NCBI RefSeq assembly: GCF_035084215.1
Contig: NC_090325.1
Coordinates: 132,308,001-132,372,000, forward strand
DNA length: 64,000 nucleotides
Direction: 5' to 3'
Source: Heptranchias perlo
Lineage: Eukaryota
Under the pieces are notes generated by a model. That model saw only the letters and a list, made by a program, of their open reading frames with translations, did not search any database and was not told the DNA's origin. Shown in pieces: positions 48 through 60,164 of this stretch. The translations under genes and the position numbers were made by a program. Positions within the stretch are counted from its first letter, which is position 1. Each line of letters opens with the position of its first letter.

Positions 48-790
48 AACTTTAAATGGTGAGAAACTATTAAATGTTCATGTTTAGACGGATTTGGGTG
101 ACCTTGTACACGAAACACAGGAAGTTAGCATGCAGGTACCGCAAGCAATTAGGAAGGCAAATAGTATGTTGGCCTTTATTGCAAGGGGTCAAGGAAGTCC
201 TGCTGCAATTGGAGGGCTTTGGTGAGATCACACCTGGAGTACTGTGTACAGTTTTGGTCTCCTTACCTAAGAAAGGATATAATTGCCTTAGAGGCAGTGC
301 AACGAGGGTTCACTAGATTGATTCCTGGGATGAGAGGGTTGTGCTATGAGGAGAGATTGAGTAGAACGGGCCTATACTCTCTGGAGTTTAGAAGAATGGG
401 AGGTGATCTCATTGAAACATATAAGATTCTGAGAGGGCTTGACAGGGTAGACACTGAGAGGCTGTTTCCCCTGGCCGGAGAGTCTAGAACTAGGGGTCAT
501 AGTCTCAGGATAAGGGGTCGGCCGTTTAGGACTGAGATGAGGAGAAATTTCTTCACTCAGAGGGCTGTGAATCTTTGGAATTCTCTACCCCAGAGGGCTG
601 TGGATGCTCAGTCGCTAAGTATATTCAAGGCTGAGATTGATAGATTTTTGTAATCTAAGGGAATCAAGGGATATGGGGATTGGACAAGAAAGTGGAGTTG
701 AGGTCAAAGATCAGCCATGATCTTATAGAATGGCGGAGCAGGCTCGAGGGGCTGTATGGCCTATTCCTGCTCCTATTTCTTATGTTCTTA
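48..790 (+). mobile_element. CR1 LINE 3' fragment (RT C-terminus, 3'UTR, tail)
   Basis: ORF 219-653 has CR1 motifs HLEYCVQFWSP, RMGGDLIETYK, FFTQRAVNLWNSLP; ends in a TTCTTATG-like tail near 790. Confidence 0.9.
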
Positions 791-7800: not shown

Positions 7801-9103
7801 TGCCGAGTGGATGATCCATCTCAGCCTCCTCCCGATATCCCCACCATCACGGAAGCCAGTCTTCGGCCAATTCGATTCACTCCACATGATATCAAGAAAC
7901 GGCTGAGTGCACTGGATACAGCAAAGGCTATGGGCCCCGACAACATCCCAGCTGTAGTGCTGAAGACTTGTGCTCCAGAACTAGCTGCGCCTCTAGCCAA
8001 GCTGTTCCAGTACAGCTACAACACTGGCATCTACCCGACAATGTGGAAAATTGCCCAGGTATGTCCTGTCCACAAAAAGCAGGACAAATCCAATCCGGCC
8101 AATTACCGCCCCATCAGTCTACTCTCAATCATCAGCAAAGTGATGGAAGGTGTTGTCAACAGTGCTATCAAGCGGCACTTACTCACCAATAACCTGCTCA
8201 CCGATGCTCAGTTTGGGTTCCGCCAGGACCACTCGGCTCCAGACCTCATTACAGCCTTGGTCCAAACATGGACAAAAGAGCTGAATTCCAGAGGTGAGGT
8301 GAGAGTGACTGCCCTTGACATCAAGGCAGCATTTGACCGAGTGTGGCACCAAGGAGCCCTAGTAAAATTGAAGTCCATGGGAATCAGGAGGAAAACTCTC
8401 CAGTGGCTGGAGTCATACCTAGCACAAAGGAAGATGGTAGTGGTTGTTGGAGGCCAATCATCTCAGCCCCAGGGCATTGCTGCAGGAGTTCCTCAGGGCA
8501 GTATCCTAGGCCCAACCATCTTCAGCTGCTTCATCAATGACCTTCCCTCCATCATAAGGTCAGAAATGGGGATGTTCGCTGATGACTGCACAGTGTTCAG
8601 TTCCATTCGCAACCCCTCAGATAATGAAGCAGTCCGAGCCCGCATGCAGCAAGACCTGGACAACATCCAGGCTTGGGCTCATAAGTGGCAAGTAACATTC
8701 GCGCCAGATAAGTGCCAGGCAATGACCATCTCCAACAAGAGAGAGTCTAACCACCTCCCCTTGACATTCAACGGCATTACCATCGCCGAATCCCCCACCA
8801 TCAACATCCTGGGGGTCACCATTGACCAGAAACTGAACTGGACCAGCCATATAAATACTGTGGCTACGAGAGCAGGTCAGAGGCTGGGTATTCTGTGGCG
8901 AGTGACTCACCTCCTGACTCCCCAAAGCCTTTCCACCATCTACAAGGCACAAGTCAGGAGTGTGATGGAATACTTTCCACTTGCCTGGATGAGTGCAGCT
9001 CCAACAACACTCAAGAAGCTCGACACCATCCAAGATAAAGCAGCCCGCTTGATTGGCACCCCATCCACCACCCTAAACATTCACTCCCTTCACCACCGGC
9101 GCA
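7801..9103 (+). mobile_element. LINE family 2 reverse transcriptase fragment (CR1/jockey superclade), open frame
   Basis: ORF 7807-9120 has GPDNIP, NYRPISLLS, QFGFR, LDIKAAFDRVWH, GVPQGSILGP, FADD; its 3' part overlaps 33139-33220. Confidence 0.95.
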
Positions 9104-17958: not shown

Positions 17959-20599
17959 TTATGAGAATCTATCAAATATGAGTGACTCCCTGGCTTCACG
18001 AGCAGCCAGGTGAACCGCTGCTCTGCTGATGGGTTGCCCATCATCCCCCTCCTTCTCAATGTTGATGGCCAATGAGGATGCCTCATGATCGCATGAGATC
18101 TCAGCCACTGGTAACCCTTTCTGTTGAGCGATGTTGTGCAGGACGCAACACACGACTATTACTCTACACACTTTTTCTGGTGCTCACTGAAGGGCTCTAC
18201 CAGATTGATCCAGGCACCTGAAGTACATCGTCAGCATTCCTATGGCTTGTTCAATGACAGGCCTAGTGGTGATGTGACTGTCGTTGTACCGCTGCTGTGC
18301 CTCACTGGTGGGGTTTCGCGGAGGTATCATGAGCTACGTCAGCAGGGGTTATCCTTTGTCTCCAAAGAGCCAGTCCATAAGTCTGTTTTGTGGAAGAGGG
18401 CTGGTTTGCTGGATTCGCGCAGAATGAAGGAATCATGGCAGCTGCCAGGGAATTTGGCAAACACCTGCAGAAGTCTCTTCCAGTGGTCGCAAACCAGCTG
18501 CTCGTTGATGAAGTGATTTCCCTCTCGGTTGATGAACATTCCTGGCTCATGTGCAGGTCCTCGGATTGCCACATGTATGCAATCAATTGCGCCCTGTACC
18601 CGTGGGTAGCCAGCCAGAGAGTGGAAACCCGCTGCCCTCTCAGTCTGGCTGATGTCGTCGATGGGGAAGTTGACGTAGTCAGATGACTGAGAGATCCCGG
18701 TGATGTCACCAGTGGCACCTTGGAAGGATCCGGAAGTGAAGAAATTGAGGGCAGTGGTGACTTTAATTGTGACGGGCAATGCGTGCCCACTAGGCCCAGA
18801 CGGGAGCAGTTTTGCATGAAGGAGCGTGCAGATGTCTGCAACCATTTGGCAACTCAATCTGAGCCTTCATACGAACTGCTCCTCAGAGAGGTCCAGGAGG
18901 CTCATCCTCTGCCTGTACACCGTCTTACGAGGGCAGTACCTCCTGCGACCTCAGCCCCTCTGTTGTTCCCCTCTCTGCTCTTCTGCAGGTCCTTGTGGCA
19001 CACCTCTGTCTTGTGGAGCTGCAAATCCCAGAACTGCACGCCATGCCAGCCTCAGATGCTGATGTGCCTCCTCCTCAGATCATAGAATCATAGAATCATA
19101 GAATAGTTACAGCACGGAAAGAGGCCATTTGGCCCATCGAGTCAAGAGCAAGAGCAATCCAGCTAGTCCCACTCCCCCGTCCTTTCCCCGTAGCCCTGCA
19201 AATGTTTTCCCTTGAAGTACTTATCCAGTTCCCTTTTGAAAGCCACGATTGAATTGGCCTCCATCACCCCCTCAGGCACTGCATTCCAGATCATAACCGC
19301 TCACAGTGTAAAAAAGTTTTTCCTCATGTCGCCATTGGTTTTTTAGCCAATCACCTTAAATCTGTGTCCTTTGGTTCTTGACCCTTCCGCCAATGGGAAC
19401 AGTTTCTCTTTAATTACTTTATCTTTACCCTTCATGATTTTGAATAACTCTACCAAATCTCCTCTCAACCTTCTCTGCTCTAAGGAGAACAATCCCAGCT
19501 TCTCCAGTCTATCCACGTAGCTGAAGTCCTTCACCCCTGGAATCATTCTAGTAAATCCCTTCTGCACCCTCTCTAAGGCCTTCATATCCTTCCTAAATTG
19601 CGTTGCCCAGAACTGGACACAATACTCCAGTTGTGGCCGAACCAGTCATCATAACTTCCTTGCTTTTGTGCTCAATGCCTCTATTTATAAAGCCCAGGAT
19701 CCCGTATGCTTTTGTAACCGCTTTCTCAACCTGCCCTGCCACCTTCAACGATTTGTGCACATACACCCCTAGATCTCTTTGTTCCCGCACCCCTTTTAGA
19801 GTTGTACCCTTTAGTTAATATTGCCTCTCCTCGTTCTCCCTACCAAAATGTATCACCTCGTAGTTGTCTGCATTAAATTTCATCTGCCACGTGTCCGCCC
19901 ATTCCAGCAGCCTGTCTATGTCCTCCTGAAGTCTATCACTATCCTCCTCACTGTTTACAACACTTCCAAGTTTTGTGTCATCTGCAAATTTTGAAATTGT
20001 GCCCTGTACACTCAAGTCCAAGCCATTAATACATATCAAGAAAAGCAGTGGTCCTAGTACTGATCCCTGGGGAACACCACTGTATACCTACCTCCAGTCC
20101 AAAAAACAACCTTTCACCACTACTCTCTTTTTCCTGTCACTTAGCCAATTTTGTATCCATGCAGCCACTGCCTCTTTTATTCCATGGGCTTCAACTTTGA
20201 TGAGAAGCCTATTGCGCAGCACTTTATGTAACGTCTTTTGAAAGTCCACATACACCACATCAACCGCATTGCCCTCATTGGCCCTCTCTGTTACCTCATC
20301 AAAAAGTTCAATCAAGTTAGTTAAACACGACTTGCCTTTAACAAATCCACGTTGGCTTTCCTTAATTAATCCACACTTGTCCAAGTGACTGTTAATTTTG
20401 TCCCAGATTATCGTTTCTAAAAGTTTCTCCAGTTTAACCGTGGTTAAACTGACTGGCCTGTAGTTGCTGGGTTTATCCTTATGCCCTTTTTTGAACAAGG
20501 CTATAACATTTGCAATTCTCCAGTCTTCTGGCACCATCCCCGTATCTAAGGATGATTGGAAGCAGATGTAGTGCTGAATAAATCCATTGCACCCCCCAT
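17959..20599 (-). pseudogene. Harbinger (HARBI1-like) DDE transposase, interrupted by a CR1 insertion
   Basis: ALNFFTSGSFQ, GAIDCIHVAI, FPGSCHDSFIL, VCCVLHNIA; N-terminus (MGGAMDLF) lies beyond the CR1 at 20563-20599. Confidence 0.9.
19081..20562 (-). mobile_element. 5'-truncated CR1 LINE inserted into transposase #1
   Basis: (CATAGAAT)n tail at 19081; RT fragments with KFADDTK; CAGAT duplicated at 19076-19080 and 20563-20567. Confidence 0.92.
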
Positions 20600-22663: not shown

Positions 22664-23620
22664 TAGAATCACCGAATGGTTACAGCATAGAAGGAGGCCA
22701 TTTGCCCTATCGAGCCCATGCCAGCTCTTTGTAAGAGCAATCCAGTTAGTCCCGTTCCCCCACTTTTTCCCCGGAGCCCTGCAAATTTTTTCCCTTCAAG
22801 TATTTATCCAATTGCTTTTTGAAAGCCACAATTGAATTTGCTTCCACCACCCTTTCAGGCTGTGCATTCCAGATCATAACTACTTGTTGTGTAAAGAAGT
22901 TTTTCCTCATGTCACCTTTGGTTCTTTTGCCAATCACCTTAAATCTGCGTCCTCTTTTTTTTGACCTTTCCACCAATGGGAACAGTTTCTCTTTACTTAT
23001 TTTACCTCACACCCTTCATGATTTTGAACATTTCTACCAAATCTTCTCTGCTCTAAGGAGAACAATCCCAGCTTCTCCAGTCAATCCACATAACTGAAAT
23101 CCCTCATCCCTGGAACCATTCTAATAAATCTTTTCTGCACCCTCTCTAAGGCCTTCACATCCTTCCTAAAGTGCAGTGCCCAGAATTGGACACAATCAGT
23201 TGTGACTGAACTAATGTTTTATAAAGGTTCAACATAACTTCCTTGCTTTTGTACTCTATGCCTCTATTTATAAAGCCCAGGATCCCGTATGCTTTTTTAA
23301 CCACTTTCTCAACCTGCCCTGCCACTTTCAAACATTTGTGCACATAAAGCTCCTGGACCCCTTTAGAATTGTACCATTTAATTTATATTGCCTCTCTTCA
23401 TTCTTCCTGACAAAATGTATCACTTCGCAGTTCTCTGTGTTAAATTTCATCTGCCATTTGTCCGCCCATTCCACCAGCCTGTCTGTGTCCTCTTGAAGTC
23501 TATTACTATCCTCCTCACTGTTTGCTACATTTCCAAGTTTTGTGTCATCTGCAAATTTTGAAATTGTGCTCTGTACACCTATGTCCAAGTCATTAATATA
23601 TATTAAAAAAAGAAGTGGTC
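22664..23620 (-). mobile_element. 5'-truncated CR1 LINE
   Basis: GPLLFLIYINDLD..SKFADDTKLG and FFTQQVVMIWN fragments; tagaatc tail. Confidence 0.9.
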
Positions 23621-24024
23621 CTTTTGTGTACCATTGTGTAATGACATCAGTGCATGAACATAGCACAGTCCCTAAAATTTCAGAAACTTTGTCCTCCACA
23701 GATTGGGGAGTGCATCGCCAAGTGCCCATTTACCTTTTACCACTTCCCTGCAAGAGACCACTCCCCAAACACGACATCAGGAAAATTGGCTCTATAGTCA
23801 TTTAGGATAACCATGTTCCACCTCCTGAAAATGGAGCTGGTGCTAAAGATACATTCAGCAGGATCTAGAAGATAGATTAGGAGCAGATCCACAGGCTATC
23901 CAGAATTTTGGTCAACTATAGCTGAGATAAGTGGATTCTACACCTTTCCTTGGCACTTCCTATGTGATCTTGAACTTTTCTGTCATTTTGTTGGAATATG
24001 GGGTAAAATAGAGACATTGCTTTA

Positions 24025-33714: not shown

Positions 33715-35395
33715 ATTTACCGGGGGGCTAACAAGGTGGGTATGACATTAGATGAAGAGATCAAAAAAAAATATAAAAACAATTAAAATAGAAAGGGGGA
33801 GATAATTGCTAAACTAATCAGAGGATAGATAGGATAATCTGGATGGCTTGCCTCCACGAATATTAAAAGAAGTTAGGGAGGAGATAGCAGAGGTACTATT
33901 ACATATGTATAAAAATTCATTATAAAAGGGAATAGTGCCAGAGGACTGGTGGACAACTAATGTGATTCCTATATTTAAAAAGGGAGATAGAACAAGTTCA
34001 GGAAACTATAGAGCAGTCAGCTTAATGACATTGGTGGGAAAGATAATGGAATCCTTACTCAAAGATGTAATAGAAAAACATCTAATAAATGAAAATATAA
34101 TAAAGAATAGTCAGCACGGATTTCAGAAGGGAAAGTCATGCTTGACCAACCTTATTGGATTCTTTGAAGAACTAAAAGAAAGGGTAGACAAGGGTAATGT
34201 AGTTGATGTAATATATTTTGATTTTCAAAAGGCTTTCAATAAGGTATAGCATTGTCGACTCATGACTAAGGTCAGAATATGTGGAGTCAGGGGACAGGTA
34301 GCAGAATGTATAGCAAGTTGGCTACAAACAGAAAATTGAGAGTAAGAGTTAAGGGTAGCTACTCAGACTGGCAAAAGTTGAGAAGTGGTGTTCCACAGGG
34401 ATCAGTGTTGGGCCACTGTTGTTCACAATTCCCATTAACGATTTGGATTCGGGAATCGGAAGTAGAATTTCAAAATTTGCCGACAACACCAAATTGGGAG
34501 GTGTAGTTAATACAAAGGAAGAATGCATCAAAATGCAAGAGGACATTAATAAACTTGCAGAATGGGCATGTAATTGGCAAATGAATTTCAATATAAATAA
34601 GTGTGAGGTGTTGCATTTTGGTAGGAAGAATAAGAGGATCACATACTGCTTGGATAATAAGAGTCTAAATGGGATAGAAGAACAAAGGGATCTAGGGCTA
34701 CAGATACACAAATCACTAAAAGTAGTGACAGGTTATTAAGGCCATAAATAGGCAAATGAAGAACTAGGGTTCATTTATAAAGGGATAGGATTGAAAAAAA
34801 GAGAAAAATGTTAAACATGTATAGAAGCTCGGTTAGACCATACTTGGAGTACTATGAACAGTTCTGGTCTCCATATTATAAAAAGGGTATGGAGGCATTG
34901 GAGAGGGTGCAAAAATGATTCACAAGGATGATACCTGAACTGAGAGAATATAATTATCAGAAAAGGTTGAACAGGCTGGGGCTCTTTTCTCTAGGAAAGA
35001 GAAGACTGAGGGGTGACCTGACTGAGGTCTTTAAGATAATGAAAGGGTTTGATAGGGTAGACGTAGAGAAAATGTTTCCACTTGTGGGGGAGTCCAAAAT
35101 TAGGGGTCATAAATATAAAATAATCCCTATTAAATCCAATAGGGAATTCAGGAGAAACCTCTTTCCCCAAAGAGTGGTAAGAATGTGGAACTCGCTACCA
35201 CAAGGTGTAGTTGAGGCAAATAACATAGATGCATTTAAGAGAAAGCTAGATAAGCAGATGAGGGTGAAAGGAATAGAAGGGTATGCTGATAGGCTTAGAT
35301 GAAGTAGGGAGGGAGGAGGCTCATGTGGAGCATAAATGCCAGCATAGATCAACTGGGCTGAATGGCCTGTTTCTGTGCTGTAATTTTGATGTAAC
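33715..35395 (+). mobile_element. Decayed CR1 LINE (RT to 3' end)
   Basis: PEDW..NVIPIFKKG, SQHGFQKGKSCLTNL, GVPQGSVLG, KFADNTKLGG, RRLRGDL. Confidence 0.92.
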
Positions 35396-39567: not shown

Positions 39568-40450
39568 ATCTTCCTGTATCCCTGATTCCTTCACCTGCGG
39601 GAAGTGTGTCCAGCTGCAGCTATTGTTTGACCGCTTGACGGCTCTGGAGCTGCGGATGGACTCACTTTGGAGCATCCGCGATGCTGAGAAAGTCGTGGAT
39701 AGCACGTTCAGTGAGTTGGTCACACCGCAGATAAAAATTACTGAGGGAGATAGTGAATGGGTGACCAACAGACAGGGGAAGAGTAGGAAGGCAGTGCAGG
39801 GGTCCCCTGCGGTCATCTCCCTCCAAAACAGGTGTACCGTTTTGGATACTGTTGGGGGAGATGGCTCACCAGGGGAAGGTGGCAGTGGCCAGGTTCATGG
39901 CACCGCGGTTGGCTCTGCTGCACAGGAGGGCAGGAAAAAGAGTGGCAGAGCTATAGTGACAGGGGACTCGATTGTAAGGGGAATAGACAGGCGTTTCTGC
40001 GGACGCAACCGAGACTCCAGGATGGTATGTTGCCTCCCTGGTGCAAGGGTCAAGGATGTCTCGGAGCGGCTGCAGGACATTTTGGAGGGGGAGGGTGAAC
40101 AGCCAGTTGTCGTGGTGCATATAGGCACCAACGATATAGGTAAAAAACAGGATGAGGTCCGACAAGCTGAATTTAGGGAGTTAGGAGTTAAACTAAAGAG
40201 TAGGACCTCAAGGGTAGTAATCTCAGGATTGCTACCAGTGCCACGGGCTAGTCAGAGTAGGAATGACAGGATAGCTAGGATGAATACGTGGCTTGAGAGA
40301 TGGTGCAAGAGGGAGGGATTCAAATTCCTGGGACATTGGAATCGGTTCTGGGGTAGGTGGGACCAGTACAAATTGGACGGTCTGCATCTGGGCAGGACTG
40401 GAACCAATGTCCTAGGGGGAGTGTTTGCTAGTGCTGTTGGGAGGGTTTAA
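39568..40450 (+). CDS. CR1 ORF1 (partial Zn-finger/leucine zipper plus SGNH/GDSL esterase)
   Basis: CGKC..LQLL..RL..LE; GDS, CLPGA, HIGTND and DGLH esterase blocks; true N-terminus missing. Confidence 0.88.
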
Positions 40451-43403
40451 ACTAATATGGCAGGGGGATGGGAACCGATGCAGGAAGTCAGTGGGAAATA
40501 AAGTGGTGACAGAAACAAAAGGCAGTAAGGGAGAGTGTACAGAACATGACCGGACAGATGGTCTGAGAAAGCAGGGCAAAGACCAAGGGAAGTCTAGATT
40601 AAACTGCATTTATTTCAATGCAAGAAGTCTGATGGGCAAGGCAGATGAACTCAGGGCATGGATGGGTACATGGGACTGGGATGTTATAGCTATTACTGAA
40701 ACATGGCTAAGGGAGGGGCAGGACTGGCAGCTCAATGTTCCAGGGTACAGATGCTATAGGAAAGATAGAGCAGGAGGTAAGAGAGGAGGGGGAGTTGCGT
40801 TCTTGATTAGGGAGAACATCACGGCAGTAGTGAGAGGGCATATATCCGAGGGTTCGCCCACTGAGTCTATATGGGTAGAACTGAAAAATAAGAAGGGAGA
40901 GATCACTTTGATAGGATTGTACTACAGACCCCCAAATAGTCAACGGGAAATTGAGGAGCAAATATGTAAGGAGATTACAGACAGCTGCAAGAAAAATAGG
41001 GTGGTAATAGTAGGGGACTTTAACTTTCCCAACATTGACTGGGACAGCCATAGCATTAGGGGCTTGGATGGAGAGAAATTTGTTGAGTGCATTCAGGAGG
41101 AATTTCTCATTCAGTATGTGGATGGCCCGACTAGAGAGGGGGCAAAACTTGACCTCCTCTTGGGAAATAAGGAAGGGCAGGTGACAGAAGTGTTAGTGAG
41201 GGATCACTTTGGGACCAGTGATCATAATTCCATTAGTTTTAAGATAGCTATGGAGAAGGATAGGTCTGGCCCAAAAGTTAAAATTCTAAATTGGGGAAAG
41301 GCCAATTTTGATGGTATTAGACAGGAACTTTCAGAAGTTGATTGGGAGAGTCTGTTGGCAGGCAAAGGGACGTCTGGTAAGTGGGAGGCTTTCAAAAGTG
41401 TGTTAACCAGGGTTCAGGGTAAGCACATTCCATATAAAGTGAAGGGCAAGGCTGGTAGAAGTAGGGAACCTTGGATGACTCGGGAGATTGAGGCCCTAGT
41501 CAAAAAGAAGAAGGAGGCATATGACATGCATAGGCAGCTGGGATCAAGTGGATCCCTTGAAGAGTATAGAGATTGCCGGAGTAGAGTTAAGAGAGAAATC
41601 AGGAGGGCAAAAAGGGGACATGACATTGCTTTGGCAGATAAGGCAAAGGAGAATCCAAAGAGCTTCTACAAATACATAAAGGGCAAAAGAGTAACTAGGG
41701 AGAGAGTAGGGCCTCTTAAGGATCAACAAGGTCATCTATGTGCGGAACCACAAGAGATGGGTGAGATCCTGAATGAATATTTCACATCGGTATTTACGGT
41801 TGAGAAAGGCATGGATGTTAGGGAACTTGGGGAAATAAATAGTGATGTCTTGAGGAGTGTACATATTACAGAGAGGGAGGTGCTGGAAGTCTTAACGCGC
41901 ATGAAGGTAGATAAATCTCCAGGACCTGATGAAATGTATCCCAGGACGTTATGGGAGGTTAGGGAGGAAATTGCGGGTCCCCTAGCAGAGATATTTGAAT
42001 CATCCACCGCTACAGGTGAGGTGCCTGAAGATTGGAGGGTAGCAAATGTTGTGCCTTTGTTTAAGAAGGGCGGCAGGGAAAAGCCTGGGAACTACAGACC
42101 GGTGAGCCTGACATCTGTAGTGGGTAAGTTGTTAGAGGGTATTCTGAGGGACAGGATCTACAGACATTTGGAGAGGCAGGGACTAATTAGGAACAGTCAG
42201 CATGGTTTTGTGAGAGGAAAATCATGTCTCACGAATTTGATTGAGTTTTTTGAAGGGGTAACCAAGAAGATAGATGAGGGCTGTGCAGTAGACATGGTCT
42301 ACATGGACTTCAGCAAAGCCTTTGACAAGGTACCGCATGGTAGGTTGTTACATAAGGTTAAATCTCATGGGATCCAAGGTGAGGTAGCCAATTGGATACA
42401 AAATTGGCTTGACGACAGAAGACAGAGGGTGGTTGTAGAGGGTTGTTTTTCAAACTGGAGGCCTGTGTCCAGCGATGTGCCTCAGGGATCGGTGCTGGGT
42501 CCGCTGTTATTTGTTATTTATATGAATGATTTGGATGAGAATTTAGGAGGCATGGTTAGTAAGTTTGCAGATGACACCAAGATTGGTGGCATTGTGGACA
42601 GTGAAGAAGGTTATCTAGGATTGCAACGGGATCTTGATAAATTGGGCCAGTGGGCCGATGAATGGCAGATGGAGTTTAATTTAGATAAATGTGAGGTGAT
42701 GCATTTTGGTAGATCGAATCGGGCCAGGACCTACTCCGTTAATGGTAGGGCGTTGGGGAGAGTTATAGAACAAAGAGATCTAGGAGTACAGGTTCATAGC
42801 TCCTTGAAAGTGGAGTCACAGGTGGATAGGGTGGTGAAGAAGGCATTCGGCATGCTTGGTTTCATTGGTCAGAACATTGAATGCAGGAGTTGGGATGTCT
42901 TGTTGAAGTTGTACAGGGCATTGGTGAGGCCACACTTGGAATACTGTGTACAGTTCTGGTCACCCTATTATAGAAAGGATATTATTAAACTAGAAAGAGC
43001 GCAGAAAAGATTTACTAGGATGCTACCGGGACTTGATGGTTTGACTTATAGGGAGAGGTTAGACAGACTGGGACTTTTTTCCCTGGAGAGTAGGAGGTTA
43101 AGGGGTGATCTTATAGAAGTCTATAAAATAATGAGGGGCATAGATAAGGTAGATAGTCAAAATCTTTTCCCAAAGGTAGGGGAGTCTATAACGAGGGGGC
43201 ATAGATTTAAGGTGAGAGGGGAGAGATACAAAAGGGTCCAGAGGGGCAATTTTTTCACTCAAAGGGTGGTGAGTGTCTGGAACGAGCTGCCAGAGGCAGT
43301 AGTAGAGGCGGGTACAATTTTGTCTTTTAAAAAGCATTTGGACAGTTACATGGGTAAGATGGGTATAGAGGGATATGGGCCAAGTGCAGGAAATTGGGAC
43401 TAG
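40446..43403 (+). CDS. CR1 ORF2: AP-endonuclease plus reverse transcriptase, uninterrupted
   Basis: FNARSL, ITETWL, GDFNFPNIDW, SDH (EN); NYRPVSLTS, DFSKAFDKV, VPQGSVLGP, FADD (RT); no AUG before the EN domain. Confidence 0.95.
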   Translation, partial: FKLIWQGDGNRCRKSVGNKVVTETKGSKGECTEHDRTDGLRKQGKDQGKSRLNCIYFNARSLMGKADELRAWMGTWDWDVIAITETWLREGQDWQLNVPGYRCYRKDRAGGKRGGGVAFLIRENITAVVRGHISEGSPTESIWVELKNKKGEITLIGLYYRPPNSQREIEEQICKEITDSCKKNRVVIVGDFNFPNIDWDSHSIRGLDGEKFVECIQEEFLIQYVDGPTREGAKLDLLLGNKEGQVTEVLVRDHFGTSDHNSISFKIAMEKDRSGPKVKILNWGKANFDGIRQELSEVDWESLLAGKGTSGKWEAFKSVLTRVQGKHIPYKVKGKAGRSREPWMTREIEALVKKKKEAYDMHRQLGSSGSLEEYRDCRSRVKREIRRAKRGHDIALADKAKENPKSFYKYIKGKRVTRERVGPLKDQQGHLCAEPQEMGEILNEYFTSVFTVEKGMDVRELGEINSDVLRSVHITEREVLEVLTRMKVDKSPGPDEMYPRTLWEVREEIAGPLAEIFESSTATGEVPEDWRVANVVPLFKKGGREKPGNYRPVSLTSVVGKLLEGILRDRIYRHLERQGLIRNSQHGFVRGKSCLTNLIEFFEGVTKKIDEGCAVDMVYMDFSKAFDKVPHGRLLHKVKSHGIQGEVANWIQNWLDDRRQRVVVEGCFSNWRPVSSDVPQGSVLGPLLFVIYMNDLDENLGGMVSKFADDTKIGGIVDSEEGYLGLQRDLDKLGQWADEWQMEFNLDKCEVMHFGRSNRARTYSVNGRALGRVIEQRDLGVQVHSSLKVESQVDRVVKKAFGMLGFIGQNIECRSWDVLLKLYRALVRPHLEYCVQFWSPYYRKDIIKLERAQKRFTRMLPGLDGLTYRERLDRLGLFSLESRRLRGDLIEVYKIMRGIDKVDSQNLFPKVGESITRGHRFKVRGERYKRVQRGNFFTQRVVSVWNELPEAVVEAGTILSFKKHLDSYMGKMGIEGYGPSAGNWD

Positions 43404-44589
43404 CTTAGTGATATAAATTGGGCGACATGGACATGTTGGGCCGAAGGGCCTGTTTCCATGTTGTAACTTCTATGATTCTATGATTCTATCTTAATATGAC
43501 TGTTTTTCCTCTTCCCTTAAGAAAACCAGGTACATTAACTCAAGGATGGTTTTTTATATTTTTATCGAATTTTAAAGGTGAGGCTTCTTAAGGAGGGTTT
43601 CCCTTTAATGCCACTCTATGACATCGACCCCATTAGTATATATTTCAGAATGCCTGGAAGGAGGTGGAAACTGCAGCTGACCCCTACTGTCACTGGCTGT
43701 GCTAGTCCTATGGTGTGGTAGTTATCCTAGCAGTAGATGGCACAGCTCTGCTTCTAGCTTTCTGCTGACCTGAAGAAAGCACCTCACAGTCATTACTAGG
43801 TAGCTGCAACAATGCCTGCAAATATGGTTGGTGGCATCTTGGCGAGTACGACCAAACAGACTTTGGCGGCTAATGATCAACTTGGCATGCATTCTTTCAA
43901 CCAATACCACTGAAAACATGGCATTCAGATAAATTACTGTTGCCATTGGAATGTTGTCCAAGCTTCTTTTAGAAATAGGACAATCTGCATGCATTAACCA
44001 CCTTGACAAAGCAAGGTCTTGTCACCTCTGTCTGCAGATGTAGATGCAGATGTGAGAGTACCAGCAGGTGGACACAGAGCACCCTTCTTGCAGCCTGACC
44101 TGCTTGGCATTCTTCCATTGATCCTCCACCTCTTCCACACATGTCAAATAGGGGGATTCTCACAGGGAGACTGATTGGTGCCAATAAAAGTGTTGGGAGA
44201 CTGCAAATGTTAACTAGCCCCACCTCACTGATAAAATTAAACAACATTTTCAATGATTTTTCTTGTTATATTTGAGGTCCTTTGTGAGCTGTTAAATTTA
44301 TAACTGTTGAAATCACATGGGAATAATTCCCTCTCTGTACTCAGGGAATAGACTAGGATAATAATTGTATATATGTGCCTTTGAATTCTTCCCAACTTGT
44401 AAGTGGTTGTATTTGGCCTTGGCTTTGTGCTTTATGTTACAGAACTCAATACTTTTTTCCATTTATTATAAAACAGAAGGCAGGCAGAGTAGACTGTGGA
44501 CCAAACCAGAGATGCAGTTGTTGAATGGAGAATATTTTCACTGTGCTGCCTCCAAATTCATTCCAAAAGTCAACTTACGTTATGTTGGA

Positions 44590-46920: not shown

Positions 46921-48800
46921 AGTAACATAGGAATAATAGGAACAAGAGTAGGCCATTTAGCCCCTTGAGCCTGTTCTGCTATTCAATGACATCATGGTTG
47001 ATCTGTGACCTAACTCCATATACCCGCCTTAGCTTCATATCCCTTAATACCATTGGTTAACAAAAATCTGTCAATCTCAGATTTAAAATTAACAATTGAA
47101 CTAGCATCAATTGCCGTTTGCGGAAGAGATTTCCAAACTTCTACCACCCTTTGCGTATAAAAGTTTTTCCTAACTTCACTCTTGAAAGTCCTGGCTCTAA
47201 TTTTTAGGCTATGTCCCCTAGTCTTAGACTCCCCAACCAGCGGATGTAATTTCTCTCTATTTACCCTATCAGTTCCCCTTAATATCTTGAAAACTTTGAT
47301 CAAATCACCCTTTAATCTTTTAAATTCAAGGGGATACAACCCCAGTTTGTGTAATCTCTCCTCGTAATTTAACCCTTGGAGCCCAGCTATCATTCTAGTA
47401 AATCTACGCTGCACTCCCTCCAAGGCCATTAGATCCTTCCTTAGGTGCGGTGCCCAGAACTGAACATAATACTCCAGGTGTGGTCTAACCAGAGCTTTGA
47501 ATAACTGTAGCATAACTTCTTCCCCCTTGATTTCTAGTCCTCTAGATATAAAGGCTAGCATTCCATTAGCCTTTTTGATTATTTTCTGTACCTGCCCATG
47601 ACATTTTAATGATCCCCCAAAACTTCTTTGGAACTCTATTGTTTCGAGCTTTTCACCATTTAGAAAGTAGTCTGATCTATCCTTTTTAGGTCCAAAGTGG
47701 ATGACCTCACACTTGCCTACGTTGAAATCCATTTGCCACAGTTTTGCCCATTCACTTAATCTATTAATATCTCTCTGTGATTTTATGCTTCCATCTACAT
47801 TGCTTACAATGCTGCGTATCTTTGTGTCATCAGCAAACTTGGATAGGTGACTCTCTATCCCATCATCTAAGTCGTTAAAAAATACAGTGAATAGTTGAGG
47901 CACCAACACTGTGGGGCACCACTAGTCACATCCTGCCAATTTGAGTACCTGCCCATTATCTCTACACTCTGTCTCCTGCCAATTTCCTAACCAGGTCAAT
48001 AATTTCCCCTTAATTCCATGAGCTTCAACTTTAGCTAATAATCTCTTATGAGGGACTTTATCAACTTTAACTTCTGGAAGTCCATATAAACAACATCCAT
48101 AGACAGTCCCGTGTCTACTATTTTAGTCACCTCTTCAAAAAATTCAATCAGATTCATCAAGCATGACCTACCCTTTACAAATCCATGCTGGCTTTCTCTG
48201 ATCAGCTGAAAATGTTCAAGGTGTTCAGTCACTCTATCCTTAATTATAGACACTAGTAATTTCCCGACAACAGATGTTAGGCTAACTGGTCTATAATCCC
48301 CTGATTTCCCCCTTCCACCTTTCTTAAATAGCGGAGTGACATGTACAATTTTCCAATCTAAAGGAACGGTTCGTGAATTGGGAGAACTTTGGAAGATTAT
48401 AGTTAGGGCAATTGCACTGTTCTCACCTACTTCCTTTAAAACTCTGGGATGGAAATCACCTCATCCTGAGGATTTGTCACTCTTTAGTGCCATTATTTTC
48501 TTAATTACTGTTAATTTGATTACATTAATTATGGTGAGTCCCCATCCCTGATTCAAAATTAGTTTCGTTGGGGTGTCCAGCATGCTATCCTCTTCCTCTA
48601 CTTCAAATACTGACGCAAAGTAATTATTTAACATGTCAGCCATTTCTTTATTTTCATTTGCAATATCACCATTATCAGTTTTTTACGGGACCCACATTGC
48701 TCTTGACCACCCTCTTTTTCCTAATATAATTGTAAAAATTTTTTGTGTTGATTTTAATATCCCTTGCAATTTTCCTTTCATACTCCCTTTTTGCAGCTCT
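46921..48800 (-). mobile_element. CR1 LINE fragment inserted into the Penelope right arm
   Basis: ORF 47010-47909 has SKFADDTK and RPHLEYYVQFWAP; (CATAGGAA)-like tail near 46925; Penelope sequence resumes at ~48801. Confidence 0.92.
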
Positions 48801-56645: not shown

Positions 56646-58460
56646 CATGGAACCATAGAATCATAGAAGGTTACAGCACAGAAGGAGGCCATTCGGCCCA
56701 TCAAGTCCGCACCGGCTCCATGCATGAGCAAACCAGCTAGTCCCACTGCCCCACCCTATCTCCGTAGCCCTGCACATTTTTTTTGTTTCAAGTACTTATC
56801 CAGTTCCCTTTTGAAGGCCATGATTGAATCTGCCTCCACCACTCCCTTGGGCAGTGCATTCCCGATCCTAACCACTCGCTGTGTAAAAATGTTTTTCCTC
56901 GTATCACCTTTGGTTCTTTTGCCAATCACCTTAAATCTATGCCCTTTGGTTCTTGACCATTCCGCCAATAGGAACAGTTTCTCTCTATTTACTCTGTCTA
57001 GGCCCTTCATGATTTTGAATAGCTCTATCAAATCTCCTCTCAACCTTCTCTGATCCGAGGAGAACAATCCCAGCTTTTCCAGTCTTTCCATATAATTTAA
57101 GTCCCTCACCCTTGGAATCATTCTAGTAAATCTCCTCTGCACCTCTCTAAGGCCTTCACATCTTTCCTAAAGTGTGATGCCCAGAACAGGACACAATACT
57201 CCAGTTGTGGCCGAACCAATGTTTTATAAAGGTTCATCATGACTTACTTGCTTTTGTACTCTATGCCTCTATTTATAAAGCCCAGGACCCCGTATGATTT
57301 TTTAACACCTTTCTCAACCTGCCCTACCACCTTCAACAATTTATGCACATGCACCCCCAGATCCCTCTGTTCCTCTACCCCTTTTAGAATTGTGCCCTCT
57401 AGTTTATATTGCCTCTCCTCATTTTTCCTACTGAAATGCATCACCTCGCATTTTTCTGCATTAAACTTCATCTGCCACATGTCCGCCCATGCCACCAGAG
57501 TATCCTCTTGAAGTGTATCACTGTCCTCCTCACTGTTCACTACCCTTCCAAGTTTTGTGTCATCTGCAAATTTTGAAATTGTGCCATGTACTCCCAAGTC
57601 CAAGTCATTAATACATATCAAGAAAAGCAGTGGTCCCAGCACCGACCCCTGGGGAATACCACTGACACACCTCCCTCCAGTCCGAAAAACAACCGTTCAC
57701 CACTACTCCCTGTTCCCTGTCATTTAGCCAATTCTGTATCCATGTTGCTATTGCCCCCTTTATTCCATGGGCTGCAATTTTAATAGCAAGCCTACCATGG
57801 CACTTTATCAAATGCTTTTTGAAAATCCATATACACCACATCAACTACATTACCCTCATCTACCCTTTCTGTTACCTTATCAAAAAACTCTATCAGTTTG
57901 GTTAAACACAATTTGCCTTTAATAAATCCGTGCTAGCTTTCCCTAATCAATCCACACTCGCCCAAGTGACTGTTAATTCTGTCCCAGATTATCGTTTCCA
58001 AAAGTTTCCCCAACACCGAGGTTAAACTGACTGGCCTATAGTTGCTGGGTTTATCCTTACACCCTTTTTTGAACAAGGGTGTAACATTTACAATTCTCCA
58101 GTCATCTGGCACCACTCCCTTATCTAAGGATGTCTGGAAGATTATGACCAGTACCTCCGTAATTTCCACTCTTACCTCCCTCAGCATCCTAGGGTGCATC
58201 CCATTCGGACCAGGTGACTTATCTACTTTAAGTACAGCTATCCTTTCTAGTACCTCTTCTTTCTCAATTTTTAGCCCATCCAGTATCTTAATTATATCTT
58301 CCTTTACCGAGACTCTGGCAGCATCTTCTTCCTTGGTAAAGACCGATGCAAAGTACTCATTTAGTATCTCAGCCATGCCCAGTGCCTCCATGAGCAGATC
58401 TCCTTTAATGGTGCCCAATTGGCCCCACCCCTCCTCTTACTACCCGTTTACTGTTAACAT
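56646..58460 (-). mobile_element. Decayed CR1 LINE (tether/RT to 3' tail)
   Basis: LNEYFASVFT, KSPGPNGMHPR, KFADDTKLG; catagaat tail. Confidence 0.93.
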
Positions 58461-58512: not shown

Positions 58513-60164
58513 GGGTGCTAAATTGGGCCATGTAGCGCCTGTTGTTTCAGCGCTATGTGGCCTTTTGAGGTGCCAAGATGGCGTCTTGGCTGCGCATTCA
58601 TGTTTCCAGCATGACATGCGCCGGGCGCCATCTTGGTATAGGAGTTATCGCATGTACAAATACCAAATGCTGGCTGCATGTAAAGTAAGGAGAAAATGGA
58701 TACAATCAGTGCGCAACACTGATTTAAAGTGATAGACATCATTTTGGGACTTAACGCACAGTCTTAGCCCCAACCATCTGGACGTGTCTTAGAGTGCCTG
58801 GAGGATCCCCACTAGTGCTATTTAAAGGGACCATGCAGGATTTACAGGTTAGTGATTGGATTATTGCTTCTGGCTGCTGAGACATTTGTAACTGTTTTTG
58901 GAGGTCTCCTAAACTTGAATACTAGAACTAGGGGACATAGCCTAACATTTAGAGCCAGGACATGCAGGAGTGAATTTAGGAAAAGCTTCTACACATAAAG
59001 GGTGGGAGAAGTTTGGAACGCTCTTCTGCAAACAGCAGTTGATGCTAGCTCAATTGTGAATTCTAAATCTGAGATTGATAGATTTCTGTGAACCAAGGGA
59101 TATGGGGCTAAGGTGGGTATATGGAGTTAGGTCACAGGTCCACCATGATCTCATTGAATGATGGAAAAGGCTCGAGGGGCTAATTGCCACTGCCACTTGC
59201 TGCCTCCTGATATGTGCCACCTTCTGCAAGAAAGCGGAACGTGTGTCTGGGTGATATGCCTGTCATGGTTGAATTGCTGCCAGTGTGTGTGGCTGTGAGT
59301 TGTGGGTGGGCAGTTTGCAACAGAGGTAATGTGTAAGGGTGAGAGGAAGCATCTGATTGAAAGAGTTGAGTACTGATTGAAAGAGTTTGTTGGTATGTGG
59401 GTGATGGGGGGGTGTAGTGCGTAGAGCAGTGGATGTGGCTAGTGGTGCAGTTGGTCGGAGACGCCATTTGACTGTTGACCTCACTCACCTTGACCACTCG
59501 TGTCAAAGCATTGAACTTCTTCCTGCACTGCATCCATGTTCATGGTGCTATGCGCCTGGCATTGACTTTGTTCCCCTTGCTTCCCACTGCCTTTTGGGCA
59601 TATATCTGGAGGGCCTCTTGCCCCTACCCCCACCCCCCTCCCACGGGTATAGGATGTCCCTCCTTCTGTCCATCTCTTGCACCAAGGCCTCTAGTCAATC
59701 ATCAGAGAACCTTGTTGCACATACTCTCACAGGCCTGGTACAAACTCAGATCGGCAGATTGGTGAGGTCTGGCATGCAGATTGGAGAATGTGGGATTTAG
59801 TAGTGCACAATCTTTATTTAATGTTTTAACATAACTCATCAGTGTTTAAACATAGGGATGGGACCTGCATCTATGTTTTACATATGTGATTTCTGATTTC
59901 CATTCAGACTCCGTGAAGACAGCAGGCTGTTATTTTTAGCAAATAACATGTATCGTCTACCTTTAAGAGATTTGAAGCGACATCCTCCCTTTAAGAGGTT
60001 GGGGCTTCCCCTGCTGGTGGAACATGCAAATTGCATTGAATCAACGTGCAAGGCCTGGATTTTAAAGCAGCTTGCAGGTGAATACTGAGGCAGGACAAAA
60101 TTTGGGTTAATAACAGATCACGCTACCTATGCCCAATAATAGGCCCGATCAAATTTTTTCCCCC
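58513..60164 (-). mobile_element. Internally deleted Harbinger derivative with Myb exons and a CR1 3' piece
   Basis: ATA on both flanks, G-rich/C-rich termini; RFSDD*LEALVQE..RRRDILYP ... QCRKKFNALTRVVK|GTGAGT (donor at 59488). Confidence 0.65.
58915..59185 (+). mobile_element. CR1 3' fragment without tail
   Basis: Matches the reverse complement of ~46960-47225 (ACTAGGGGACATAGCCTAA...AAATCTGAGATTGA). Confidence 0.8.

What the first reader, a model, noticed from the sequence alone, without database searches (positions are those of the whole stretch)
40430..40635. Candidate -1 programmed ribosomal frameshift linking CR1 ORF1 to an AUG-less ORF2
Seen: ORF2 is open from the ORF1 end, but its first AUG (MGKADE) lies inside the endonuclease domain, after the conserved NARSL motif. 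At the junction is TTTAAAC (40446-40452), followed by TAA, a short spacer and a G-rich tract (GGCAGGGGGATGGG). Known: U_UUA_AAC is the coronavirus-type X_XXY_YYZ slippery heptamer. Inference: with one more G in the run at 40439-40441, ORF1 would read GTT GGG GAG GGT TTA AAC TAA (VGEGLN*). That puts the heptamer in the correct phase, so a -1 slip enters TTT AAA CTA ATA TGG (FKLIW), the ORF2 frame, giving a gag-pol-like esterase-EN-RT fusion. In this copy ORF1 is 1 nt out of that phase (VGRV*), which I attribute to a homopolymer deletion or sequencing error. I do not know of this mechanism being established for vertebrate CR1.
Basis: partly seen in the sequence, partly recalled or inferred. Interest (0 to 1): 0.75.

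Follow-up and report, generated by a model that had tools for sequence, protein, structure and literature searches.

The report
Conserved frameshift site in CR1 LINEs
In a common vertebrate jumping gene (CR1), relatives from sharks to crocodiles and lizards end the first gene with the same seven-letter slippery sequence plus a stop, with the second gene one base back, so ribosomes likely slip to make one fused protein as retroviruses do; this copy has three G's where sister copies have four, and some close sisters also carry a start codon at that spot.

Summary
This is a 5'-truncated shark-type CR1 LINE. ORF1 ends VGRV* here, but 45 of 50 relatives that pass the last esterase motif end xLN*, none GRV*, and sister copies in four runs carry the extra G. 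In published consensus sequences, 18 ORF1 ends from shark to alligator read T-TTA-AAC followed by any of the three stops. Five synonymous variants tested gave 0 junction hits. Six of the 18 share the G-tract after a 7-nt spacer of variable sequence. More distant ORF1s end GN or KN, and the residue before changes as G_GGA_AAC and A_AAA_AAC require (22/1 against 0/9). A -1 frameshift giving an esterase-endonuclease-RT fusion is the best reading (0.8), but it is inferred and not measured. One correction: 'AUG-less' holds for this copy, not for all sisters. The closest consensus and 2 other junctions (3 of 18) read UAAUG, so SART1-type stop-start coupling is a real rival. No hairpin, pseudoknot or 3'-end pairing was supported as the stimulator. 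I found no report of this for vertebrate CR1 in the library searched.

The parts
39573..43489 (+). 5'-truncated CR1 LINE copy; begins inside the ORF1 zinc finger, no 5' UTR; possible 5-nt target-site duplication ATCTT (39568-72 and 43488-92)
   Evidence: the duplication is short and could be chance
39575..40450 (+). ORF1 remnant (half zinc finger, coiled-coil-like stretch, SGNH esterase at about 39962-40402); ends VGRV* in this copy
   Evidence: Pfam PF13472 E 2.8e-13; the profile of relatives hits PDB 4c1b 'ORF1-encoded protein' at E 1.1e-37; alignment
40439..40441 (+). G run: three G here, four in sister copies; puts this copy's ORF1 out of phase with the heptamer
   Evidence: table 4 (35, 5, 40, 58 contigs); catshark and stingray consensus
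40446..40452 (+). slippery heptamer U_UUA_AAC (last two ORF1 codons Leu-Asn in relatives; Phe-Lys-Leu in the -1 frame)
40453..40455 (+). ORF1 stop of in-phase relatives, directly after the heptamer (TAG 11, TAA 6, TGA 1 of 18 consensus junctions)
40455..40457 (+). ORF2-frame codon overlapping the stop: ATA here, ATG (UAAUG) in 3 of 18 consensus junctions and probably in many close sisters
40463..40472 (+). conserved G-tract GGGGGATGGG, 10 nt after the heptamer; candidate stimulator (also encodes G-x-G in ORF2)
   Evidence: depth peak at 40438-40473 in all four runs
40446..43403 (+). ORF2, 985 codons from FKL without a stop: 57-codon linker, APE endonuclease, reverse transcriptase (about 42072-42743)
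40632..40634 (+). first in-frame ATG of this copy, inside the endonuclease after motif I; not conserved
   Evidence: T40633C in 73 and 69 contigs of two runs; ACG in the catshark consensus
43404..43489 (+). 3' UTR ending in (ATTCTATG)-type repeats

Best explanation
The junction is a conserved X_XXY_YYZ slippery site (U_UUA_AAC) directly before the ORF1 stop, and a fraction of ribosomes likely slip back one base there and continue in ORF2, which would give an ORF1-ORF2 (esterase-endonuclease-RT) fusion beside free ORF1 protein. Shown here: the place, phase and conservation of the heptamer, the free choice of stop codon, the fixed-length spacer and G-tract, and the lack of a conserved ORF2 AUG. 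Inferred: the slip itself, the fusion protein, and a stimulating role for the in-phase stop and the G-tract (a weak two-tier G-quadruplex or a bound protein). This copy is 5'-truncated and out of phase by one G, so it is a record of the signal and would not use it as it stands.
For: (1) Of 74 ORF1 relatives, 50 pass the DGLHL motif; 45 of these end xLN*, none GRV* (counted). (2) Among 150 representatives at 50% identity, 53 end LN at the junction, 10 GN and 3 KN, and 8 more have KN at that place followed by a short tail. The residue before LN is one of Y/C/D/H/F/N in 22 and one of Q/E/K/M/W in 1; before GN/KN the counts are 0 and 9 (Fisher p 3.6e-7, not corrected for kinship). Q/E/K/M/W make up 19% of the five residues further upstream (binomial p 2e-4). 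This is the pattern U_UUA_AAC, G_GGA_AAC and A_AAA_AAC demand, and these three are among the four most shift-prone heptamers named in PMC5009743 (passages). The types interleave on a tree built without the junction residues (GN needs 6 changes, internal KN 2). (3) Named LN-ending ORF1s come from sharks, rays, chimaera, sturgeon, an eel, turtles, lizards, a snake and birds. (4) DNA: 17 of 23 TTTAAACTA hits in the supplement of PMC13343379 lie at the ORF1 end, plus one with TGA. Five synonymous variants followed by TAG gave 0 junctions among 5 hits, although TTA is only 15% of Leu and AAC 29% of Asn codons in this ORF2. A search on upstream ORF1 motifs found 6 rows; all 5 with a visible junction have the heptamer. 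(5) Depth peaks over 40438-40473 in 4 of 4 runs (for example 38,926 to 909,289 to 18,481 in X14), so the junction is better conserved in DNA than the coding sequence on both sides. (6) Five proteins from copies with a natural indel run on into FKL, and none has Met after it (P0032, P0063, P0075, P0113, P0234). (7) ORF2 homologues have no shared start position (first 60 of 116 printed).
Against: No translation was measured. UAAUG is present in 3 of 18 consensus junctions, including the one closest to this copy, and G at 40457 is the majority in three of four runs (haplotypes not resolved). No stable hairpin follows the heptamer (z -0.9 to -1.9), no Rfam family matched, and the predicted G-quadruplex has two tiers only (-6.7 kcal/mol). 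The GN, KN and FF types rest on protein only: no DNA was seen, and none of the 14 such proteins looked up carried an organism name. 28 of 91 tree rows have none of the LN/GN/KN ends. The main supplement search contained the heptamer and so is circular; only the first 400 nt of each consensus were visible, and several have collapsed indels. One search left 52 difference rows unshown, so invariance of the heptamer in reads is not proven.
Confidence: 0.8

Rival explanations
1. Termination-reinitiation: the ribosome stops at the ORF1 stop and restarts in ORF2, at the overlapping UAAUG where present (SART1 type) or at a near-cognate codon (L1 type), giving a separate ORF2 protein.
For: UAAUG in 3 of 18 consensus junctions, including the closest; G at 40457 in 68%, 60%, 74% and 7% of depth; near-cognate codons in the ORF2 frame (ATA 40455, GTG 40491/40503/40506, CTG 40563); precedent in SART1 and L1 (PMC3708506 and PMC2881922, passages).
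Against: 15 of 18 junctions lack UAAUG and 11 use TAG. Reinitiation gives no reason for an invariant T-TTA-AAC or for switches among canonical heptamers. In 8 KN-type ORF1s the frame runs on past the site. It could still be a second route in the UAAUG families.
Confidence: 0.13
2. Leu-Asn is kept for ORF1 protein function (a C-terminal motif) and the heptamer is a by-product; ORF2 is translated by some other route.
For: LN is terminal and highly conserved.
Against: A protein constraint would allow synonymous codons (0 found) and would not exclude Q/E/K/M/W before LN while favouring Q before GN. A starred clade of 7 related esterases ends without LN.
Confidence: 0.04
3. The frames are joined at the RNA level, by splicing at the junction AG or by polymerase slippage on T3A3.
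For: 11 of 18 junctions end the motif in TAG, which contains AG.
Against: 7 of 18 have TAA or TGA; upstream is G-rich with no pyrimidine tract; the runs are only three bases long; no recurring joint at the site among the joints shown (DNA contigs only, so weak).
Confidence: 0.03

Closest known systems
Dictyostelium TRE5-A and TRE3-A (APE-type non-LTR elements)
   Same: [quoted passage not shown]
   Different: Different LINE lineage, ORF1 type and host. I did not see the primary data or their shift site, so I cannot say whether it was measured.
Coronavirus 1a/1b and retroviral gag-pol -1 frameshifting
   Same: Same heptamer class; U_UUA_AAC is the IBV site (PMC5009743 passages); structural or accessory protein fused to the polymerase.
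   Different: No pseudoknot or strong hairpin found 5-8 nt downstream; a short G-tract instead. The stop follows the heptamer directly (as in Rous sarcoma virus; recalled, from no call). The host is a non-LTR element.
SART1 UAAUG stop-start coupling; L1 unconventional ORF2 initiation
   Same: Bicistronic LINE RNA in which ORF2 translation depends on ORF1; UAAUG occurs in 3 of 18 CR1 junctions.
   Different: Most CR1 junctions have no AUG, and the conserved element is the heptamer.
Vertebrate canonical CR1 with esterase ORF1 (for example the catshark consensus ScyCan_CR1-1a of PMC13343379)
   Same: Esterase ORF1, APE-RT ORF2 and the repeat tail; the catshark consensus is closely alike across the junction by eye.
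   Different: That survey's main text has 0 hits for frameshift, slip, overlap, start codon or translat, so the junction signal is not described there.

Membership tests
Vertebrate CR1 LINE (esterase-type ORF1) | ORF1 with SGNH esterase | tested here: met
   PF13472; PDB 4c1b E 1.1e-37
Vertebrate CR1 LINE (esterase-type ORF1) | ORF2 with APE endonuclease followed by RT | tested here: met
   PF03372, PF14529, PF00078
Vertebrate CR1 LINE (esterase-type ORF1) | 3' end of short ATTCTATG-type repeats, no poly(A) (feature recalled) | tested here: met
   43470-43489
Vertebrate CR1 LINE (esterase-type ORF1) | RT groups with CR1 on a tree of reference elements | not tested
   no RT tree built; assigned by likeness to published CR1 consensus and shark/ray ORF1s
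Canonical -1 programmed ribosomal frameshift signal | X_XXY_YYZ heptamer in phase with the upstream ORF | tested here: met
   met in relatives; not in this copy, which has three G instead of four
Canonical -1 programmed ribosomal frameshift signal | downstream ORF open in the -1 frame from the heptamer | tested here: met
   985 codons from FKL; read-through proteins
Canonical -1 programmed ribosomal frameshift signal | heptamer conserved beyond protein need | tested here: met
Canonical -1 programmed ribosomal frameshift signal | 3' stimulator (pseudoknot or hairpin) 5-8 nt downstream | tested here: inconclusive
   no significant fold; conserved G-tract at 10 nt; two-tier G4 predicted from 40459; pseudoknots not modelled and no covariation alignment available
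Canonical -1 programmed ribosomal frameshift signal | measured frameshifting and a trans-frame product | not testable with these tools
   needs a reporter, ribosome profiling or mass spectrometry
SART1-type UAAUG stop-start coupling | conserved overlapping UAAUG | tested here: not met
   3 of 18 consensus junctions; absent in this copy

The most novel reading that the evidence does not exclude
Esterase-ORF1 CR1 elements of jawed vertebrates, and related elements in unnamed hosts, have made their reverse transcriptase as a gag-pol-like fusion by -1 frameshifting since before sharks and amniotes split, swapping among the canonical heptamers, and they use a non-canonical stimulator: an in-phase stop plus a short G-tract bound by a protein or folded as a quadruplex, with no pseudoknot.
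Probability: 0.45. Interest if true: 0.85.

Novelty: new variant of a known kind. Interest (0 to 1): 0.72.

Why it matters
How LINEs translate ORF2 is described as unclear (PMC3708506 introduction, passage), and the frameshifting review PMC5009743 discusses LINEs without naming CR1 (0 hits in the 300,000 of 449,034 characters held). CR1 is the most abundant transposed family of birds, crocodilians, turtles and snakes (abstract start of PMC4316615). A -1 frameshift would set the ORF1:ORF2 ratio and tie the polymerase to the ORF1 oligomer, as in retroviruses. It would also mean that gene models starting ORF2 at the Met inside the endonuclease are cut short (for example P0266), and it would tell anyone studying CR1 mobility in culture that the native junction must be kept. 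A 30-40 nt cassette makes the question directly testable.

Tried and rejected
No whole genome was held, so copies could not be counted in the window's own assembly; the window has no second ORF1 or junction. DNA scans of viral, metagenome and prokaryote collections gave no CR1 locus; the four loci are bacterial-type SGNH genes; plasmids and phages gave no match. Local hairpin stimulator: not significant. Pairing of the junction with the element's 3' UTR, a lead from earlier finding e1-9772336: the best 3' UTR window ranked 7 of 301 overlapping windows and the duplex is bulged and rich in G-U pairs, so not supported; no covariation test was possible. Rfam: one weak mir-219 hit far below its cut-off, rejected. 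UGGGA motifs of the calicivirus reinitiation type (motif recalled) lie at 40329, 40358 and 40438, two of them where Leu-Gly-His and Trp-Asp are encoded; inconclusive. In one search, three 'internal LN' and two 'internal GN' matches included spurious ones, so the test was redone on terminal residues only, with P0073 dropped because its LN is not at the junction. Whether the three-G run is a real mutation or a sequencing error could not be decided. Supplements of PMC8665684 and PMC4120745 held no searchable junction. Two older papers were not held.
Full report
What is there. The finding lies at the ORF1/ORF2 junction of a CR1-type LINE on the + strand, about 39573-43489. ORF1 encodes an SGNH esterase (PF13472; a profile of 31 relatives hits PDB 4c1b at E 1.1e-37). 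ORF2 encodes an APE endonuclease and a reverse transcriptase and is open for 985 codons from the heptamer. The copy starts inside the ORF1 zinc finger (alignment), so it is 5'-truncated. The nearest named ORF1 relatives are from a sawshark (72-76%) and from rays.

Is this copy the odd one out? Yes. Of 74 ORF1 relatives, 50 run through the last esterase motif DGLHL; 45 end xLN*, one IN*, two run on into FKL, one is frameshifted just upstream and one is divergent; none ends GRV* (counted). In four public runs from four organisms, laid as contigs, an extra G behind 40438 is seen in 35, 5, 40 and 58 contigs, 32-70% of depth; I take these shares as under-counts because short contigs end near the run. 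The closest published consensus, from catshark, has four G. Whether the three-G run is a mutation or a read error is undecided.

Is the heptamer conserved as DNA? Supplementary Table 2 of PMC13343379 lists consensus sequences, of which only the first 400 nt of each were visible. TTTAAACTA gave 23 hits: 17 at an ORF1 end (halosaur, bowfin, coelacanth, bullfrog, elephant shark, stingray, sawfish, catshark x2, dogfish x3, alligator x2, crocodile x3) and 6 elsewhere (placed by eye). A TGA version added bearded dragon. The stops are TAG 11, TAA 6 and TGA 1. That search is circular, so I ran two checks. Five synonymous variants before TAG gave 5 hits, none at a CR1 junction. A search on upstream ORF1 motifs gave 6 rows, and all 5 with a visible junction had the heptamer. 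In this ORF2, TTA is 15% of Leu codons and AAC 29% of Asn codons, so codon bias does not explain it. In 6 of the 18 (alligator x2, crocodile, elephant shark, sawfish, catshark) the tract GGGGGA(T/G)GGG follows the stop after 7 nt of variable sequence, as in the window; several others show a shorter G-rich stretch in visibly collapsed consensus. In the reads, depth peaks over 40438-40473 in 4 of 4 runs (X14 38,926 / 909,289 / 18,481; X15 10,774 / 185,761 / 13,392; X1 508,857 / 945,001 / 416,827; X6 130 / 314 / 56). No substitution is listed inside 40439-40456, but 52 rows were not shown.

A test that needs no DNA. If ORF1 ends in X_XXA_AAC, its last two residues are LN, GN or KN, and the codon before must end in T, G or A respectively. 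Among 150 representatives at 50% identity, 53 end LN at the junction, 10 GN and 3 KN, and 8 have KN at that place with a short tail. Before LN, residues whose codons can end only in C/T number 22 and those whose codons can end only in A/G number 1; before GN/KN the counts are 0 and 9 (Fisher p 3.6e-7, uncorrected for kinship; binomial p 2e-4 against the 19% background upstream). On a tree of 91 esterase domains cut before the junction, GN needs 6 changes and internal KN 2, and one starred clade of 21 rows mixes LN, GN, KN and FF ends. The three heptamers implied are among the four most shift-prone ones listed in PMC5009743 (passages). Named LN ends come from sharks, rays, chimaera, sturgeon (flagged by the source as unverified), an eel, turtles, lizards, a snake and birds. 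28 of the 91 rows have other ends, among them a starred clade of 7 that I take to be L2-type elements (inference).

Is ORF2 without an AUG? In this copy, yes: the first ATG (40632) follows the Asn of endonuclease motif I (40617), and it is not conserved. Changing a conserved Asn near the start of the Zorro3 endonuclease (N17A) cut mobility to under 5% (PMC1965478 passages); that it is the same Asn is my inference. Five proteins from copies with a natural indel read into the -1 frame as FKLNLQG, FKLDVQG, FKLDRLG, FKLGNLG and FKLDPLG (stingray x2, unnamed, turtle, anole), none with Met. ORF2 homologues start at scattered positions (60 of 116 printed; callers may write GTG or TTG as Met). That is the SART1 arrangement (PMC3708506 passages). 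It occurs in 3 of 18 junctions, so it cannot be the general mechanism, but it may be a second route in this copy's own family.

How it most likely works. A ribosome reaches UUA-AAC with the stop next in line; some slip one base to UUU-AAA and read on through a 57-codon linker into the endonuclease and RT (inferred). No hairpin downstream beats shuffles clearly, Rfam has nothing, and pairing with the 3' UTR is not supported. The candidates for a stimulator are the in-phase stop and the G-tract. G-quadruplexes 6-8 nt behind UUUAAAC gave about 7% shifting in reporters (PMC3919603 passages); the one predicted here starts 6 nt behind the heptamer but has only two tiers, and its first GG is not shared by the crocodilian junctions. 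The tract also encodes G-x-G, so a protein constraint is not excluded, though the Gly codons are GGG in the window and those six junctions while GGG is 23% of Gly codons in this ORF2.

What is known. -1 frameshifting is well known in viruses, and a review states it for the Dictyostelium LINEs TRE5-A and TRE3-A (PMC5911963 legend). For vertebrate CR1 I found no report in searches, nor by term look-ups in PMC13343379, PMC8665684, PMC4120745, PMC3905857 and PMC5009743; all of these were seen as passages, not whole texts. The library lacks most subscription papers, two older papers were not held, and Repbase notes and the cut parts of the supplement were not seen, so an earlier mention is possible. 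Three earlier AI notes from this scan reach the same idea in other genomes; they are not independent evidence.

Verdict. The feature is real, strongly conserved and best read as a -1 programmed frameshift signal (0.8); reinitiation is the main rival (0.13). It is a new variant of a known kind. Interest 0.72.

Noticed in passing
window 49-698, 7834-9102, 19166-20561, 22749-23642, 33842-35287, 47016-48800, 56789-58424, 58840-59127: Eight further decayed, 5'-truncated CR1- or L2-like ORF2 fragments (27-60% identity to this ORF2); none reaches ORF1 or the junction.
   Followed up: no
proteins P0005 and P0258: Shark-type CR1 ORF1 and ORF2 filed in NCBI under Pseudomonas aeruginosa and Carnobacterium maltaromaticum on 3-4 kb contigs; probably host DNA in bacterial assemblies.
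   Followed up: no
proteins P0033, P0061, P0062, P0072, P0075: Ray gene models named for host genes (ribosomal protein S24, TMEM204, ABHD14A-like, hydroxyacid oxidase 2) contain CR1 ORF1 sequence; exonisation or mis-annotation.
   Followed up: no
PMC13343379 Supplementary Table 2, row AldAff_Crack-2: A consensus labelled Crack appears to carry remains of an esterase ORF1 and the CR1 junction, although the paper says no ORF1 was detected in vertebrate Crack elements.
   Followed up: no
PMC13343379 Supplementary Table 2, rows SquAca_CR1-18 and SquAca_CR1-3: TTTAAACTA followed by a short G-rich stretch also occurs in the 5' UTR of two dogfish CR1 families; meaning unknown.
   Followed up: no
proteins P0121, P0147, P0172, P0141, P0158, P0171: Related ORF1s with FF or FL at the junction position, which would fit U_UUU_UUN heptamers; no DNA seen.
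   Followed up: partly
proteins P0275 and P0281: Distant ORF2s called as starting MDIQG, which resembles the L-D-x-Q-G that follows FK at CR1 junctions; the 'Met' may be a TTG or CTG at a shift site.
   Followed up: no
proteins P0284, P0298, P0300: NPGP (2A-like) motifs ahead of the endonuclease in distant ORF2 homologues, a known recoding route in CR1-group elements (PMC3708506).
   Followed up: no
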